Both the position numbers and the translations under genes were made by a program. Positions 1,657 to 23,102 of a stretch of 36,062 nt of DNA are shown here, piece by piece (within the stretch, counting starts at the first letter, position 1; every line of letters begins with the position of its first letter). Under the pieces are notes generated by a model, which ran no database searches, had not been told where the DNA came from, and was given only the letters and a program-made list of their open reading frames with translations. This DNA comes from Octopus sinensis (lineage: Eukaryota): NCBI RefSeq assembly GCF_006345805.1, contig NW_021824698.1, positions 1 through 36,062 on the forward strand, given 5' to 3'.

Positions 1657-1949
1657 ACATTTCTAGAGAGAAAGGTAGTCTTGCAGCTGTTTACACTATC
1701 CAGTTAGGATAACAAACTTTGAACTCCTATCGGAATCTACATGCTTCTACAAGAAGCATTTCTACCATTTCGACACTATTTTTCTCTTATTTCCCTTTAT
1801 ACTTTCTATATCCATCCTCTTCCAAAATAACTCCTTATATTGAACTCTTACTGTTTCCCTCTAGTTAACTCTCTCATATCGTCTCTGATGAAGGGTTATC
1901 CCTAATATCCCAGAAACAGCTGTAAGATTAACTTTCCCTTTATAAATGT
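1657..1949 (+). mobile_element. Penelope-like pseudo-LTR / retrozyme-like fragment with a partial inverted copy
   Basis: 1657-1692 is the reverse complement of 1914-1949 (6 mismatches in 36 bp); the right copy overlaps a hammerhead motif; lies between (TG)/(TA) microsatellites. Confidence 0.6.
1881..1928 (+). ncRNA. Type I minimal hammerhead ribozyme motif
   Basis: GUCU-CUGAUGA-A-GGGUUAU cccua AUAUCCC-A-GAAA-CAGCUG-UA-AGAU: both core boxes, stem II, palindromic stem III (CAGCUG), GUA triplet, short stem I; A.A mismatch at 10.1/11.1. Confidence 0.7.
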
Positions 1950-3147: not shown

Positions 3148-3420
3148 GTATGTATGTATGTATGTATCTATGTATGTATGTGTGTGTGGTATTATGTATG
3201 TATGTATGTATGTATGTATGTATGTATGTATGTATGTATGTATGTGCGTGTGTATGTATGTATGTATGTATGTGTGTGTATGTATGTATGTATGTATGTA
3301 TGTATGTATGTTATGTATGTATGTATGTATGTTTTGCGTGTGTATGTTTGTATGTATGTATGTATGTATGTATGTATGTATGTATGTATGTATGTATGTG
3401 GTTATGTATGTGTGTGTATG

Positions 3421-3452
<32 letters not shown>

Positions 3453-4412
3453 TATGTGTGTGTATGTATGTATGTATGTATGTGTGTGTATGTATGTATG
3501 TATGTATGTATTTATTGTGTAATGTAATGTATGTAGTGTGTTGTATGTTTGTATGTATGTATATATGTATGTATGTATGTATGTATGGTTGTATGTATGT
3601 ATGTTTGTGTGTATGTATGTATGTATGTATGTATGTGGTGTGTATGTATGTATGTATGTATGTATGTGCGTGTGTATGTATGTATGTATGTATGTATGTA
3701 TGTATGTATGTATGTATGTGTGTGTATGTATGTATGTATGTATGTGTGTGTATGTATGTATGTTATGTTGTGTGTTGTATGTATGTATGTATGTATGTGT
3801 GGTGTGTATGTATGTATGTATGTATGTATGTATGTATGTATGTATGTATGTATGTGTGTGTATGTATGTATGTATGTATGTGTATGTATGTATGTATGTA
3901 TGTATGTATGTATGTATGTATGTATGTGGTATGTATGTATGTATGTGCGTGTGTATGTTGTTGTATGTATATATGTAGGTATCTATGTATGTATGTATGT
4001 ATGTATGTATGTATTATGTATGTGTGTGGTGTATGTATGTATGTAATGTATGTATGTGTGTGTGTATGTATGTATGTATGTATGTATGTATGTGCGTGTG
4101 TATGTATGTATGTGTGTGTATGTATGTATGTATGTATGTATGTGCGTGTGTATGTATGTATGTATGTATGTATGTATGTATGTATGTATGTGTGTATGTA
4201 TGTATGTGTGTGTATGTATGTATGTATGTATGTATGTATGTATGTATGTATGTATGTATGTATGTATGTGTGTATGTATGTATGTATGGGTGTGTATGTA
4301 TGTATGTATGTGTGTGTGTATGTATGTATGTGTGTGTATGTATGTATGTATGTATGTATGTATGTGTGTATGTATGTATGTATGTGTGTGTGTGTGTATG
4401 TTTGTATGTATG

Positions 4413-4446
<34 letters not shown>

Positions 4447-4534
4447 TGTATGTATGTGTGTGTATGTATGTATGTATGTATGTATGTATGTGTGTATGTA
4501 TGTATGTATGTGCGTGTGTATGTTTGTATGTATG

Positions 4535-4568
<34 letters not shown>

Positions 4569-4664
4569 TGTATGTATGTATGTATGTGTGTGTATGTATG
4601 TATGTATGTATGTATGTATGTGTGTATGTATGTATGTATGTGTGTGTGTATGTTTGTATGTATG

Positions 4665-4698
<34 letters not shown>

Positions 4699-5172
4699 TG
4701 TATGTATGTATGTATGTATGTGTGTGTGTATGTATGTATGTATGTATGTGTGTGTGTATGTATGTATGTATATATGTATGTGCGTGTGTATGTATGTATG
4801 TGTGTGTATGTATGTATGTATGTATGTGCGTGTGTATGTATGTATGTATGTATGTATGTATGTATGTATGTATGTGTGTGTGTATGTATGTAATGGTGTG
4901 TATGTATGTATGTATGTATGTATGTATGTGTGTATGTATGTATGTATGTATGTGTGTATGTATGTATGTATGTGTGTGTATGTATGTATGTATGTATGTA
5001 TGTGTGTGTGTATGTATGTATGTATGTATGTGTGTGTGTATGTATGTATGTGGTGATGTATGTATGTATGTATGTATGTATGTATGTGTGTATGTATGTA
5101 TGTATGTATGTATGTATGTGTGAGTGTATGTATGTATGTATGTATGTATGTATGTATGTATGTATGTATGTA

Positions 5173-5205
<33 letters not shown>

Positions 5206-6750
5206 GTGTGTATGTATGTATGTATGTATGTGTGTGTGTATGTATGTATGTGTGTGTATGTATGTATGTATGTATGTATGTATGTATGTATGTATGTATG
5301 TATGCATGTATGTATGTATGTGTGTGTGTATGTATGTATGTGTGTGTATGTATGTTTGTATGTATGTATGTATGTATGTATTGTGTATGTATGTATGTAT
5401 GTATGTTTGAGTGTATGTATGTATGTATGTATGTATGTGTGTGTATGTATGTATGTATGTATGTATGTGTGAGTGTATTATGTATGTATGTATGTAGTGT
5501 ATGTATGTGTATGTATGTATGTGTGTGTAGTATGTATGTATGTATGTTATGTATGTATGTATGTATGTGCGTGTGTATGTTTGTATGTATGTATGTATGT
5601 TGTGTATGTATGTATGTATGTATGTATGTGTGGTGGAGTGTATGTATGTATGTTATGTGTATGTATGTATGTATGTATGTATGTATGTATGTATGTATTG
5701 GGTATGTATGTATGTATGTATGTATGTATGGTATGTGTGAGTGTATGTATGTATGTATGTATGTATGTTGTGTATGTATGTATGTATGTATGTGTGTATG
5801 TATGTATGTATGTATGTATGTGTGGTGTATGTATGTATGTATGTATGTATGTATGTATTATGTATGTGCGTGTGTATGTTTGTATGTATGTATGTATGTG
5901 TGTATGTATGTGGTATGTATGTATGTATTATTGTATGTATGTATGTATGTATGTATGTGTGTATGTATGTATGTATGTATGTATGTATGTGTGTATGTAT
6001 GTATGTATGTATGTATGTGTGAGTGTATGTATGTATGTATGTATGTATGTGTATGTATGTATGTATGTGTGTGTATGTATGTATGTATGTATGTATGTGC
6101 GTGTGTATGTTTGTATGTATGTATGTATGTGTGTATGTATGTATGTATGTATGTATGTGTGAGTGTATGTATGTATGTATGTATGTGTGTATGTATGTAT
6201 GTATGTATGTATGTATGTATGTGTGTATGTATGTATGTATGTATGTATGTATGTGTGAGTGTATGTATGTATGTATGTATGTATGTGTGTATGTATGTAT
6301 GTATGTATGTATGTATGTATGTGTGTATGTATGTATGTATGTATGTATGTTTGAGTGTATGTATGTATGTATGTATGTATGTATGTGTGTATGTATGTAT
6401 GTATGTGTGTGTATGTATGTATGTATGTATGTATGTATGTGCGTGTATGTTTGTATGTATGTATGTATGTATGTATGCATGTATGTATGCATGTATGTAT
6501 GTATGTATGTATGTATGTATGATGTAATGTATGTATGTGTGTGTATGTTTTTATGTATGTATATATGTATGTTTGTATGTATGTATGTATATATGTATGT
6601 ATGTATGTTTATATGTATGTATGTATATATGTATGTATGTATGTATGTACGTATGTATGCATGCATGTATGTATGTATGTATGTATGTATGTATGTATGT
6701 ATGTATGTATGTATGTATGTGCGTGTGTGTGTATGTGTGTGTGTGCGTAT
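3148..6750. repeat. About 3.6 kb compound (TATG)n microsatellite with TG, TGCG, TTTG and TGAG variant units
   Basis: Directly visible; source of the spurious MYVC/HTYI ORFs up to 632 aa. Confidence 0.98.
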
Positions 6751-13349: not shown

Positions 13350-13888
13350 GCACTGAATTATGATGATTATTCAGGCAATATTGATATAAGCTTACGGTGG
13401 GAGATAAGGACTTAACGATCAAACGTGTGCCATTGCATTGTTTTGGGGGAACCAAATTTCTGATGAGCATTATGGGGCACCAACTTTAAGTTTGAGAAAG
13501 TGTGGTGGTAGTCCGGGGTGCTCAAGGAATTGAGTACCTCTATTGGACAGTTGATGACGTCCTCTGGGTCAGGAGTTGTATCGATAGACTGATATACATA
13601 GACTTCCCCAGGAATGAGTTTTAGCATTTCATCATTAATATGGTGAACAGTTTTATTCCTCGGGGCGGCAGTATAGCCTTTTTGCCAATCCAATCCATAT
13701 TCTGTGATAATTAGCTTGTAGATCTGGGAACACTGCATCTCTGAGATCAGAAGGCGTCTTAACAATGGTACAAATGGAATCGATGGCAATATTACCATTT
13801 TCATCCCCTGGTATTTTGCCTTCGCCAAGTGCAAGGAGGGTGTGAGGAAAGCTGCTGATGTGATATTACGTCGCATATGAGCAACCAT
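13350..13888 (-). pseudogene. Helitron RepHel PIF1-like helicase fragment
   Basis: APRNKTVHHINDEMLKLIPGEVYVYQSIDTTPDPEDVINCPIEVLNSL, then after frameshifts GLPPHFLKLKVGAP.MLIRNLVPPKQCNGTRLIVK (PIF1 2B-domain motif). Confidence 0.9.
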
Positions 13889-14230
13889 ATTGGTGTGAAG
13901 TTTGAGAGTTACTTCCGTTTATTTATAAAAAATATGCATTAAAATGGAAAAAAATGATGGTAAATTATTTGTAAAATCATAGACTCATCAATGTATTTAT
14001 ATATTCATCTATACACACATGTATGTATAATGTGCGTGTATATATTTCCATAGAGGTAACCATTCAATCCATACAAAGTTTTTTAGGACGAAAATATTTA
14101 TATATAAAAGAAAGGTTGTGTGTCTGTCTATTCCGATTTAGATTCCTAACTACTCCCACATTTTGCGATGCAGTTTAACCAAAACCGGGTATCTTATAGT
14201 CGTGATTCATATCGAGCCCTTCTGGGTATT

Positions 14231-14645: not shown

Positions 14646-15601
14646 TATAGGGGATGTTTCGCTTGTCGTAGCACACGTTTCCGTCGATTTCCGTAAAAAA
14701 TGTAACACTGAATCGGCCATACATACATACATACATACACACACACATACATACACCACACACACGTACATGCATACATACGTATACACATAAACCGAGT
14801 AAAAAATTTCAGTTACCTTTCTCTTTCACACATTACTCTCTCTGTCTCTTCACACACACTAACAGAAGCACTTCACTTACACAACATACTGTCCCTGTCT
14901 CCCACACTCCATCAAACACACACACACCACATTTACATCAATGCGTCCCATGCACGGTAACTTCAAAAGAACTTCCCTCGTCATACAATCGCTTTCTCTT
15001 AGTCTCTTTCGCTCTCATTACTTATGTAAAAAAATAAAAGTTTTTTACGGAAATCGACGGAAACCTGTGCTACGACAAGCGAAACATCGCCGATATAGGT
15101 CTTATATTCGTCCTAAAATACTTTCCTGTCACACACTCACGCACACGCACGCACACACACACACACACCACGCACCCCCACACACCCCACGCACACACAC
15201 ACTCACACACACGCACGTTAGCTTACAATTTTATTTATATATTTGCGTGTCTATGTGTGTAAAGAGGAAGTGGCAGACTGAAAGAGTCACTCACTACAAA
15301 AGGTGAATTACTTTCATTTTATTCGTTGCACACTGTGTGTGTGCGTGTGCGTGTGGTGTAAAACACATTAAGAAAAGCATTTGACATACACACCAGAATG
15401 TGAGTTTTCTGTAAATTTTGCTTAATTGGAGTTTAAAGTTTAAAAAGTGGACCTGGCAAAACCCGATGCATTCTACTCTTAAAAATGCTAAGTAAATTGT
15501 AATTGAAGAAATCCTATATTGTAGATTTCTATAACTGACAAAGGGAGGCAGATAAAATCTGCCTTTTATAATAAGATTATAATAAGATATATATATATAT
15601 A

Positions 15602-17039
15602 TCTCTTATTATAAAAGGCAGATTTTATCTGCCTCCCTTTGGGAGTTATAGAAATCTACAATATAGGATTTCTTCAATTACAATTTACCTAGCATTTTTA
15701 AGAGTAGAATGCATCGGCCATGCCAGGTCCAGTTTTTAAAATTTAAACTCCAATTAAGCGAAATTACAGAAAACTCACATTCTGGTGTGTATGTCAAATG
15801 CTTTTCTTAGTCTGGTTTACAGCACACGCAAACGCACACACACAGTGTGCAACGAATAAAATGAAAGTAAATAGCGACAGAGTGATTTGAGGAAGACTAA
15901 ACTGAAAGTATTTAAACCACTACTCAAAAAATAAAAAAACACGGCAAACAGAAACAAATAAATACATAACCATTTACTCCTCACACAATTTCTTCAATTA
16001 GAATTTACCTAAGATTTTTCAAAGTACTCCATTCGCTCATGCCATAATATATTTCTTTCAATTTCACCCCCTATTAAGACAAAATTCGAGAAAACTCAAT
16101 ATTTTAACATTTCACTCCGAAAGCATTGATGTACATGTGTGCGTGAGTGTGTGTGTGTGTGTGTATGTGTGTGTGTTTGATGGGTTGTGCGACACAGAAA
16201 GTGTGGTGTGTAACTGAAGTGCTTTTGTTAGTGTGTGTAAAGAGACAGACAGAGTGAAAGACAGAAATAACTGAAGTTTTCACTATGATATCATCACGTG
16301 CGAAAAAATTCGAAGGGTTTTGAACAATTGAGATACAGATGTCACGCCTGTATTGAAACCATTGCTAGCTGCGTAATTGCTTAATTAAGACTTTGTTTAA
16401 ATTGAAAGGGGCAAATATGTGACGAGGTTTGAAAAAAAATACCCCAGAAAAAAAATGTACTGCTGGTATTTATATAATTCACTACTATTTTGCTACAATG
16501 TCATGAAAAAGAAAAAATTTAGGTATGTAAATCGAATTCGCCACCCCCTTTTCCCCGTTCGCGTTTGTGTAAAAAAATTATTATATTAAGTTTTAAAAAT
16601 TATTTACTTTTTCAAAAAATATTAATATTAATTAATTTTCAAGAATTATTTAATTTTATTCTGTAAAATAGTAATTAATTCATTTATCCGTAAATCCACG
16701 AGGTTGTTACTCAGCACTAGAATGGTAACCTTCAACTAACACTATCTCCTCCGAGACCCTGCGGCGCAAGTTGACCAAAATTGAGAGTATGGTAGAAGAA
16801 GGGTTGCTCTTCCTTCCGTAGAACTAAAATTCAATCGGACCATGTTAACACCAAAAATTATTTACATCAAAAAGATGCTTTTTTCTATGAAAATCCCTAT
16901 TTTTTACGATTTTTTCACTGCTGTGTCGCCACTTTTCGGTGTATTTCGACCAGAAAAATGTTCACAAAATTTTTACTTTTCAAAATTACAATTCCAGCGG
17001 GTCGAAACAAACCCGAGCAACGCCGGGCGATACTGCTAG
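15602..17039 (+). mobile_element. Non-autonomous Helitron (copy B)
   Basis: Starts TCTCTTATTATAAAAGG after an A; ends cccgagcaacgccggg-cgatactg-CTAG followed by T; first 270 bp are an inverted copy of the Helitron A 5' end. Confidence 0.85.
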
Positions 17040-18080: not shown

Positions 18081-18319
18081 TATGTTAGTATGTGTGTGTG
18101 TATATATGTATGTATGTATGTGTGTATGTATGTATAATGGAACAAAAACACAATAGAGGACAATAAAACATCCGGACAGATAGACGATATAAAAGCGGAC
18201 AGGAAAACAAGAGTCGTACAAAATTTATATATATAGAGAATAACATACTATTATATATATATATATATATATTATATATATTATATATTATATATATATT
18301 ATATATATATATATATATA

Positions 18320-18576
18320 GAATAAATAAATGGAGTTTAACGCAGGTGTAATCAAATATTTTTACTTTCGACACATTGTTTCGAAAATTCCACTGATACT
18401 ATTCAAAAGAAATAAATGGTATAAACAATGCAATCTTCTCCTCAGGAAAGTGAAAAGAACGAAACTCGTCAATAAGACATTTTAGCAAAAATTCTTTTGA
18501 ATAGTATCAGTGGAATTTTCGAAACATGTGTAAAAATATTTGATTTACACCTGCGTTAAACTCCATTTATTTATTC
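18320..18576. mobile_element. Foldback element (about 88-bp arms), Penelope-like pseudo-LTR / retrozyme-like
   Basis: 18320-18411 vs 18492-18576 are near-perfect reverse complements; left arm plus spacer encodes a hammerhead on the minus strand followed by a T-rich terminus. Confidence 0.75.
18364..18451 (-). ncRNA. Type I hammerhead ribozyme with canonical core
   Basis: ACUUUC-CUGAGGA-GAAGAUU[about 42-nt loop]AAUUUUC-GAAA-CA AUG UG-UC-GAAAGU: 6-bp perfect stem I, 7-bp stem II starting G-C, short stem III, GUC triplet; predicted cut between 18370 and 18369. Confidence 0.85.
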
Positions 18577-18834
18577 ATATATTATTCAAAATATTCAACG
18601 TAAACACGAAGTTTCTACCTTTATAAACAAGGAGTTACAACACCTTTACTTGTGAGATTTTTGCTGCCCTGGTAACTATTTATTTATTTTTTCCGTGTTA
18701 ATTGTTAACAAGGTAAAAATACACTCATCTATATATATATATATATACTTACATATAAGAGACAAAGTGTACGTACGCCGCCATATGTATATAAAAAGGA
18801 ATCCAACAAAAAATACGACTCTCTTATTCTTTCG

Positions 18835-18904: not shown

Positions 18905-19083
18905 GCTCAAAATGCTTTACAGCATTTCGTCCGCCTTTATGTTCTGTATTCAAATACCACCGAGCTCGACTTTGCCTTCCAACCGTACGGAATCGATAAA
19001 ATATGTACCAGTTGAGTACTGGGGTTCAACGAGATCGACTTATCCCCTCTCCCGAAATTGCTGGCCTTCTGCCAACGTTTGAA
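18905..19083 (+). mobile_element. SINE copy (gagttcaaattccgccgaggtcgactttgcc family), degenerate
   Basis: Aligns by eye to 25349-25575 and 29062-29277. Confidence 0.75.
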
Positions 19084-19597
19084 GTCAATATTCCGTAAGG
19101 TGGATAGAAAAACGTGTTTTTGGAAGTGTGGAATGGCTAATCTGCAGCGTATGATAGGTTGTGATGTGTCGAATAATGGATCGCTGAAATAAATAAACAT
19201 AGGAGGGATCTGGAGATTTTTATGGGAAAACAACGGTTTCTACTTGAAAGAGGAGAACGAAGTGTTGTGAAATGAGAACGAATGGCTGAGTGAAACTGCT
19301 GGATTATCTCTTCTGTACCGAAATAACCTTCGTCATTAGCGTCATACAATGTTTATTAACGGGTTGTAAAATCAGAGAAGTCCTTACCTTTGGAGAGGAT
19401 CTCGTAAACCTAGCAGCCATTGATATGGTCTCTATCGCATGTAGAGAGGTGATGTTGCTGTATGTTGGTTAAATAATATGGACCATAACCGCTTTGATGA
19501 TATTTCGAAAGCTTTTTAGGAAGGAACGATTGATTTCGGCAATAAATCGAGTATTTAGTATTGTGTAAGGTTTAGTGTAGCGAAAACAAATAAAGCG

Positions 19598-22923: not shown

Positions 22924-23102
22924 ACTGTTCTATATTTGAGAGATGAGGAATTATGTCCATTATTTACATTCGACGGATATTTGTCCTCATCTTGTTTGTT
23001 GTTAACACAACGTTTCGGCTGATATACCCTCCAAGCCTTCATCAGGTGTCTTGGGGAAATTTCGAACCTGGGTTCTCATTCCTAAGGTATTTTTCGATCT
23101 GG

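What the first reader, a model, noticed from the sequence alone, without database searches (positions are those of the whole stretch)
18320..18576. Canonical hammerhead hidden in a foldback whose second arm lacks the cleavage site
Seen: minus-strand ACUUUC-CUGAGGA-GAAGAUU...AAUUUUC-GAAA-CAAUGUG-UC-GAAAGU has an intact core, perfect 6-bp stem I, 7-bp stem II with an unusually long (about 42 nt) loop and a GUC site. The inverted arm (18492-18576) copies only the 3' half and reads gaaacatgtgtaaaaata, so it has lost about 7 nt spanning the scissile bond and stem I. Established: Penelope-like insertions often carry a partial inverted pLTR. Inference: best candidate for a currently active ribozyme here; a read-through transcript could alternatively fold into a long hairpin that sequesters it.
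Basis: partly seen in the sequence, partly recalled or inferred. Interest (0 to 1): 0.75.

Follow-up and report, generated by a model that had tools for sequence, protein, structure and literature searches.

The report
Long-armed hammerhead in inverted Penelope end
This is the mirror-image leftover end of a Penelope-like jumping gene carrying an intact hammerhead (self-cutting RNA) motif with an unusually long arm; this copy is likely silent, and the family's likely younger members changed a catalytic-core letter yet kept multiplying, so efficient self-cutting is likely not needed for the element to spread.

Summary
The type I hammerhead is there as described (minus strand 18451-18364). It is the end-repeat (pLTR) ribozyme of a young Hydra-clade Penelope-like retrotransposon with about 1,000 copies; sister copies carry the reverse transcriptase-endonuclease ORF upstream. 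The foldback is the family's usual head-to-head insertion in (TA)n: one arm stops at a short 3' end, the other carries a ~150-nt tail (32 of 34 classifiable inverted loci). The '42-nt loop' is predicted to be a paired 56-nt helix II, kept in an older sister family. The second arm lacks the CUGANGA half anyway; its 7-nt deletion is unique in the genome. 'Best active candidate' is not supported: helix III is a dimer-type palindrome weakened here by a private +A, the copy belongs to an older subfamily, read-through RNA is predicted to unfold it, and copy 5' ends do not pile up at the cut. More interesting: the likely younger subfamilies carry a U4C core change (402 vs 328 exact matches) while the ORF stayed under purifying selection. 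The scan noted long-armed Hydra hammerheads before, elsewhere in this genome.

The parts
18320..18491 (-). Arm 1: 172-nt 5'-truncated pLTR copy of a Hydra-clade Penelope-like element, ending at the family's short 3' end
   Evidence: 96-98% identical to the 39 best other matches; maps to 2490-2657 of the L097 element coordinates
18364..18451 (-). Type I hammerhead motif (helix I 6 bp, core CUGAGGA and GAAA, GUC triplet, predicted cut 18370/18369)
18383..18438 (-). Extended helix II, 56 nt, predicted 21 bp in four segments
   Evidence: fold; basal two segments 97.6-98.8% paired across 34 sequences including the older sister family
18371..18379 (-). Helix III / loop III ACAAUGUGU; family form ACAUGUGU or ACAUAUGU is self-complementary, this copy has a private extra A
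18491..18732 (+). Arm 2: inverted, 5'-truncated pLTR copy starting inside helix II (no CUGANGA half) and running to the family's long 3' end
   Evidence: maps to 2567-2808 of the L097 element coordinates, 1-nt overlap with arm 1
18531..18532 (+). Site of the private 7-nt deletion (C17 and the 3' strand of helix I)
   Evidence: alignment to two sister copies; 1 exact hit in the genome
18581..18732 (+). About 150-nt 'tail' present on one arm only; in full-length copies it is the 5' untranslated stretch ending about 55 nt before the ORF start
18226..18319 (.). (TA)n target, left
18730..18747 (.). (TA)n target, right

Best explanation
The locus is a short head-to-head insertion of a Hydra-clade Penelope-like retrotransposon in a TA repeat, one arm of which carries the element's intact type I hammerhead motif with a long predicted helix II; the family's ribozyme is predicted to cut only weakly and as a pair, and this copy is likely a silent passenger. 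Shown: family membership, ORF upstream in sister copies, two fixed 3' ends, one short plus one long end per inverted pair, (TA)n target, private indels. Inferred: the element protein nicks both target strands and primes two cDNAs at two internal sites of mostly uncut RNA; the two truncated cDNAs are joined at their 5' ends, which makes the foldback a by-product of insertion and not a regulatory antisense arm. Inferred: in a pLTR-ORF-pLTR precursor two hammerheads pair through self-complementary loop III and cut at low efficiency, possibly protein-assisted. Inferred: efficient cleavage is not needed for copying, since the likely younger subfamilies carry U4C.
For: Copies: 2159 candidates, 40 scored; 1033 exact hits of a 21-mer just 3' of the cut, 0 for the reversed control. 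ORF: 775 aa with RW, DKT, YRDD, GIY-YIG-like SIY..FYIG and CxxC-E-N-CxH, the features listed for Hydra in PMC8557442 section 11, and collinear by eye with Hydra-1_Obim in its supplement. 3' ends: 64 short, 35 long, 1 other of 100 copies taken in chromosome order; inverted pairs long+short in 32 of 34 classifiable loci, 2 long+long, 0 short+short (p 2e-9 against independent ends). Two internal priming sites, extension of both strands and no need for ribozyme cleavage were shown in vitro for an anole element (PMC11167929). 5' ends: 1 of 100 begins exactly at the cut, 3 within 4 nt before it, at the background density of about 0.4-0.5 per base. Structure: one compensatory pair in helix I (U-A to C-G) and G-U/G-C, U-G/U-A exchanges in helix II between this family and an older sister family; 96.6% of 612 cells paired against 31-52% for slid controls. 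Loop III stays self-complementary in all subfamilies. Order of subfamilies: sister family matches the U4 type at 23 of 30 informative sites; median distance to own majority 1.8% (U4), 1.3%, 0.6%, 0.6% (U4C types). ORF changes between the extremes: 24 synonymous, 10 nonsynonymous over 652 codons.
Against: No cleavage, transcript or read-end data. The covariation is essentially one event between two families and only 1 of 18 pairs changes on both sides (475 of 500 shuffles reach that count); the apical helix II segments were not counted because they were misaligned. The linker CxCX5C motif of Hydra is not visible in this ORF, and Pfam found nothing in the full ORF (RVT_1 only at E 0.0046 in a fragment). 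The two trees disagree on the root: open within the U4 group, near the U4C end (poor outgroup rows); 7 of 30 sites favour the other polarity. A lack of 5' ends at the cut is also expected if cut RNA is religated or is not a template. The private +A and the deletion could be assembly errors in a small unplaced contig.
Confidence: 0.82

Rival explanations
1. This copy is an active monomeric ribozyme whose long helix II supplies tertiary contacts that make up for the weak helix III, and the second arm is an antisense switch.
For: Core and helix I are perfect; the isolated 92-nt family motif forms helices I and II with probability 0.8-0.99; the extra A turns loop III into 3 nt closing a possible third pair; the long arm is kept in a sister family about 34% diverged.
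Against: Helix III pairing probability is 0.09 or less in every fold; with 35-45 nt of natural flanks the hammerhead fold lies 5.1 kcal/mol above the minimum; the arm-2 deletion is unique and inverted arms of every length are routine in the family.
Confidence: 0.07
2. All subfamilies, U4C included, keep a working dimeric or protein-assisted ribozyme that is required in vivo; U4C only tunes it down.
For: A natural U4C variant lowers activity in vitro yet permits viroid infectivity (PMC3088659 passage). The later changes are compatible with the fold: perfect loop III palindrome (self-duplex -8.4 kcal/mol), GUA triplet, G-U at 10.1/11.1, an inserted A that extends the apical helix. C3, G5, A6, G8, A9 and GAAA stay unchanged in the majority of every subfamily.
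Against: The motif took 7 substitutions in 91 nt against 12 in 392 nt of flanking non-coding pLTR (p 0.065), including loss of outer helix I pairs; copies cross the cut site intact. This rival concerns the family's need for cleavage and is compatible with the rest of the best explanation.
Confidence: 0.4
3. The repeat is a non-autonomous retrozyme or a foldback DNA transposon (MITE) whose terminal inverted repeats happen to include a hammerhead.
For: Short, non-coding, high copy number, inverted ends.
Against: Copies are nested 5' truncations of a 2.8-kb ORF-bearing element with scattered 5' and fixed 3' ends; arms are unequal and joined at variable points; no fixed-length tandem monomers were seen among the loci examined.
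Confidence: 0.03

Closest known systems
Hydra clade of Penelope-like elements and their hammerheads, including Hydra-1_Obim (Craig et al. 2021, PMC8557442; seen: abstract, passages, section 11, supplement part 2 and passages)
   Same: C-terminal endonuclease, RW/DKT/CxxC-E-N-CxH motifs, under 3 kb, (TA)n target, canonical type I hammerhead near the 3' end, inverted 5'-truncated copies, tail at one end
   Different: Helix II region of 56 nt against about 25 nt at most in the Hydra rows of File S2 (my count); no visible CxCX5C linker; tail about 150 nt against the 30-40 nt described; a different family from Hydra-1_Obim (different hammerhead sequence); U4C core in over half of the copies
Minimal and palindromic-helix-III hammerheads of metazoan PLEs (Cervera and de la Pena 2014, PMC4209133; seen: parts 1-2 of 4)
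   Same: Type I, in the pLTR, 7-bp basal helix II, short self-complementary helix III implying dimers, low activity expected; opposite-strand pairs 100-700 bp apart are mentioned there
   Different: Much longer, segmented helix II; 6-bp helix I; no unpaired base between positions 9 and 10.1
Poseidon element of the green anole, PAc (Frangieh et al. 2024, PMC11167929; seen: parts 1-2 of 4)
   Same: Two fixed 3' ends bounding a tail, AT-rich target, no ends at the hammerhead cut, cleavage dispensable for insertion in vitro
   Different: Other clade; PAc priming sites lie inside the ORF, here both ends lie upstream of the start codon; the strict one-short-one-long rule for inverted pairs is not stated in the parts read
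Natural U4C hammerhead variant of a viroid (as cited in Perreault et al. 2011, PMC3088659; seen: passages)
   Same: Same core change
   Different: There a rare viroid variant; here fixed in hundreds of genomic copies of an expanding retrotransposon lineage

Membership tests
Type I hammerhead ribozyme | Core CUGANGA, GAAA, NUH triplet in type I order | tested here: met
Type I hammerhead ribozyme | Helices I and II around the core, G10.1-C11.1 | tested here: met
Type I hammerhead ribozyme | Stable helix III in the monomer | tested here: not met
   2-3 bp, pairing probability 0.09 or less; typical of dimer-type metazoan motifs
Type I hammerhead ribozyme | Covariation in the helices | tested here: inconclusive
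   1 of 18 pairs compensatory, 7 more vary on one side; essentially one family-to-family comparison
Type I hammerhead ribozyme | Score above an Rfam hammerhead model | tested here: not met
   none among 12 matches; the long helix II likely defeats the models (inference)
Type I hammerhead ribozyme | Site-specific self-cleavage | not testable with these tools
   needs a bench assay; genomic 5' ends show no pile-up at the cut
Penelope-like element | Single ORF with reverse transcriptase and GIY-YIG endonuclease between pLTRs | tested here: met
   775-aa ORF flanked by pLTRs in L097; motifs read by eye, Pfam silent
Penelope-like element | 5' truncation, inverted partial pLTR, tail at one end | tested here: met
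Hydra clade | RWK-like and DKT motifs, CxxC and CxH around E and N, no CCHH | tested here: met
   RIRWL, SDKTG, CLLCNSE..N..CKH against section 11 of PMC8557442
Hydra clade | CxCX5C linker before the endonuclease | tested here: not met
   no such cysteines in the linker of the L097 ORF
Hydra clade | (TA)n insertion preference, length under 3 kb | tested here: met
   TA-rich flanks in nearly all of 100 copies; 2,808 nt from start codon to tail end
Hydra clade | Groups with Hydra reverse transcriptases in a tree | not tested
   compared by eye only with Hydra-1_Obim
Non-LTR retrozyme | Non-coding fixed-length tandem monomers, each with a hammerhead | tested here: not met
   copies are truncations of an ORF-bearing element

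The most novel reading that the evidence does not exclude
An autonomous Penelope-like lineage is caught losing its ribozyme while staying active: a core change (U4C), then further changes at the cut site and helix ends, were fixed step by step in the lineage that holds the intact ORFs, so self-cleavage is dispensable in vivo and the long helix II is kept for another job, such as protein binding or setting the two priming sites; and every foldback arises from paired priming at one short and one long site.
Probability: 0.3. Interest if true: 0.6.

Novelty: new variant of a known kind. Interest (0 to 1): 0.36.

Why it matters
The locus itself is an ordinary truncated transposon end. The family is more useful: the role of hammerheads in endonuclease-bearing Penelope-like elements is called unclear in PMC8557442, and here a series of natural subfamilies differing at U4, C17 and C11.1, all of which amplified, gives a direct test of whether cleavage matters. 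The one-short-one-long rule in inverted pairs is a genomic footprint that fits the two internal priming sites found in vitro and would explain how these foldbacks form. The long helix II explains why standard descriptors miss such motifs.

Tried and rejected
Rfam scans gave no hammerhead match. A family of cut-site-less arms: rejected, the deleted form occurs once. An upstream anti-core switch (GAGUUUCG pairing with CGAAAC), written into my notebook: not supported, core GAAA paired upstream with probability 0.30 or less in 14 of 14 sequences, although the isolated duplex beat 95% or more of shuffles in 7 of 14. Cleavage-defined 5' ends: no pile-up. A cap-copy G at junctions near the 2490 cluster: none seen in the window junction or the flanks printed. 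Expression: no RNA holder listed; not evidence either way. Locus-specific check of the junction, the +A and the deletion in public contigs: no listed piece bridges them, 32 of 292 pieces shown; a hole proves nothing. PDB search of the ORF gave only chance hits. No other part of this element lies in the window. A second assembled copy of the right flank was not found. Paper searches: hammerhead+U4C found only PMC3088659 with that label; Penelope+inverted+tail+twin priming, hammerhead+octopus+Penelope, long stem II (0 occurrences in the 20 of 123 listed) and dispensable showed no description of these features in the listings; subscription papers and Repbase were not searchable, and bioRxiv supplements were not seen.

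Full report
Observation. It is the only hit of a loose descriptor in the window and 0 of 100 shuffles gave one. The 42-nt 'loop' is predicted to be paired, giving a 56-nt helix II of about 21 bp. Helix III has only 2-3 bp. Rfam lists no hammerhead here.

What it belongs to. The window is a whole 36-kb contig of a 2.7-Gb, microsatellite-rich animal genome. Arm 1 has 2159 candidate matches, the 39 best others 96-98% identical; a 21-mer just past the cut has 1033 exact hits. Longer copies continue upstream into an ORF; full-length copies have pLTR-ORF-pLTR structure and a 775-aa protein with RW, DKT, YRDD and CxxC-E-N-CxH motifs. These are the features given for the Hydra clade of Penelope-like elements (PMC8557442 section 11), and the protein is collinear by eye with Hydra-1_Obim, though the CxCX5C linker is missing and no tree with published sequences was made. 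The host is likely a cephalopod on that likeness and on earlier scan notes; I did not test it.

The foldback. Family copies end at one of two places, 52 nt past the cut (short) or 147 nt further (long): 64, 35 and 1 other among the first 100 of the 1033 hits in chromosome order, all fetched (with L096 and L097). Head-to-head junctions were seen in 40 rows from 80 stretches; after dropping 4 rows with an unclassified end and 2 repeat rows, 32 of 34 loci join one short and one long end, 2 are long+long and none short+short (p 2e-9). An earlier, partly overlapping and biased set gave 24 of 24 classifiable rows of 34. The window copy follows the rule: arm 1 (18320-18491) is short, arm 2 (18491-18732) is long, flanked by (TA)n. 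This fits the two internal priming sites and extension of both target strands shown in vitro for an anole element (PMC11167929). The inference is two cDNAs primed on opposite strands and joined at their truncated ends. Arm 2 starts inside helix II and lacks CUGANGA, so its 7-nt deletion removes nothing functional; the deleted form occurs once in the genome.

Is the structure real? An older sister family (20 loci found with a motif) has a canonical CUGAUGA core, the same long arm and loop III ACAUAUGU. On 34 of 62 distinct motifs, 96.6% of cells pair, against 31-52% for slid controls; helix I shows one compensatory change and helix II two consistent one-sided exchanges. This is modest support, being one comparison between two families, and the apical segments were left out of the count. 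Loop III is self-complementary in the majority form of every subfamily, the mark of dimer-type motifs, for which low in vitro activity was reported (PMC4209133).

Is this copy active? Likely not. It alone has an extra A in loop III, which weakens the predicted self-duplex to -3.0 from -6.2 kcal/mol; it has no same-strand partner; with natural flanks the hammerhead fold is 5.1 kcal/mol above the minimum, as it is 3.5-4.2 above for two sister copies; and read-through from arm 2 abolishes helices I and II in the prediction. The private indels may be assembly errors; public contigs could not settle this. Across the family, 1 of 100 copies starts exactly at the cut and 3 more within 4 nt, which is background, so templates were mostly uncut at that site or religated.

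What the family adds. Exact 27-mer counts give 328 copies with the canonical U4 and 402 with U4C; 37 of 64 sampled copies that cover the position have C, and U4C makes up 41-75% of depth in 4 public runs. Subfamilies form a ladder: U4; U4C; plus GUA and perfect loop III palindrome; plus C11.1U (222 exact hits) and loss of outer helix I pairs. The sister family matches the U4 type at 23 of 30 informative sites, and spread within groups falls from 1.8% (34 copies) to 0.6% (21 copies); the trees leave the root unsettled. Full 775-aa ORFs were found in 2 of 23 long copies, both of the last type, 0 of 9 U4 copies; I picked 20 of these from 30 loci favouring long ORFs. Between the ends of the ladder the ORF has 24 synonymous and 10 nonsynonymous changes (dN/dS about 0.10-0.15), while the hammerhead changed at least as fast as flanking non-coding DNA (7 of 91 against 12 of 392, p 0.065). 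U4C is reported to lower activity considerably in vitro yet to be tolerated by a viroid (PMC3088659 passage), and catalytic mutants did not affect insertion in vitro for the anole element. So efficient cleavage is likely dispensable, but a weak working ribozyme is not excluded, since the other changes keep the fold.

Comparison and verdict. It works like, and is, the pLTR hammerhead of a Penelope-like element, most likely Hydra clade. Differences from the published Hydra motifs (File S2) are the 56-nt helix II, the 150-nt tail and the U4C lineage; my searches did not find these described. Earlier notes of this scan report long-armed Hydra hammerheads and inverted ends elsewhere in this genome; no note matched this sequence. 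The locus is ordinary; the family offers a natural test of what these ribozymes are for. Interest 0.36.

Noticed in passing
family copies, element positions 2485-2499 (window 18491 is 2490): 5' ends cluster here: 8 of 79 (6 independent insertions) against about 1.4 expected from the flanks; two loci (L159, L199) have both arms starting there. Possibly a transcription start inside the pLTR, which would make arm 1 a run-off copy. Weak after multiple testing.
   Followed up: partly
family copies, element positions 2596-2601 and 2534-2543: 5' ends also cluster at the two bases of the long helix II (7 and 10 copies), as if reverse transcription stalls at the hairpin; junction microhomology may explain part of it.
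   Followed up: no
L116-L135: Older sister family (about 10% spread, about 34% from this family) with canonical core, 60-nt helix II and the same tail architecture.
   Followed up: partly
L103 (G000:C5:75143000-75148500): One element has U4 in its 5' pLTR and U4C in its 3' pLTR.
   Followed up: no
L098 / L055 (G000:C20 near 16.427 Mb): Element ORF is open in frame with an unrelated upstream stretch that reads like part of another protein; chimeric 5' end.
   Followed up: no
window 1880-1940 (+) and 22990-23050 (-): Two further hammerhead-like cores (CUGAUGA...GAAAC with palindrome-like loop III) with short or broken helices; neither folds better than shuffles. Likely decayed ends of other Penelope-like families.
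   Followed up: partly
window 15490-15700: About 210-nt imperfect palindrome centred on a (TA)n run, unrelated to this family.
   Followed up: no
window 18908-19092: Abundant ~185-nt interspersed repeat (8516 candidates, about 80% identity) with several more copies in the window.
   Followed up: no
window 3148-6744: 3.6-kb (GTAT)n array with extreme GC skew.
   Followed up: no
window 13415-13918 (-): 168-codon open frame resembling a PIF1/Helitron-type helicase fragment (recalled resemblance, not tested).
   Followed up: no
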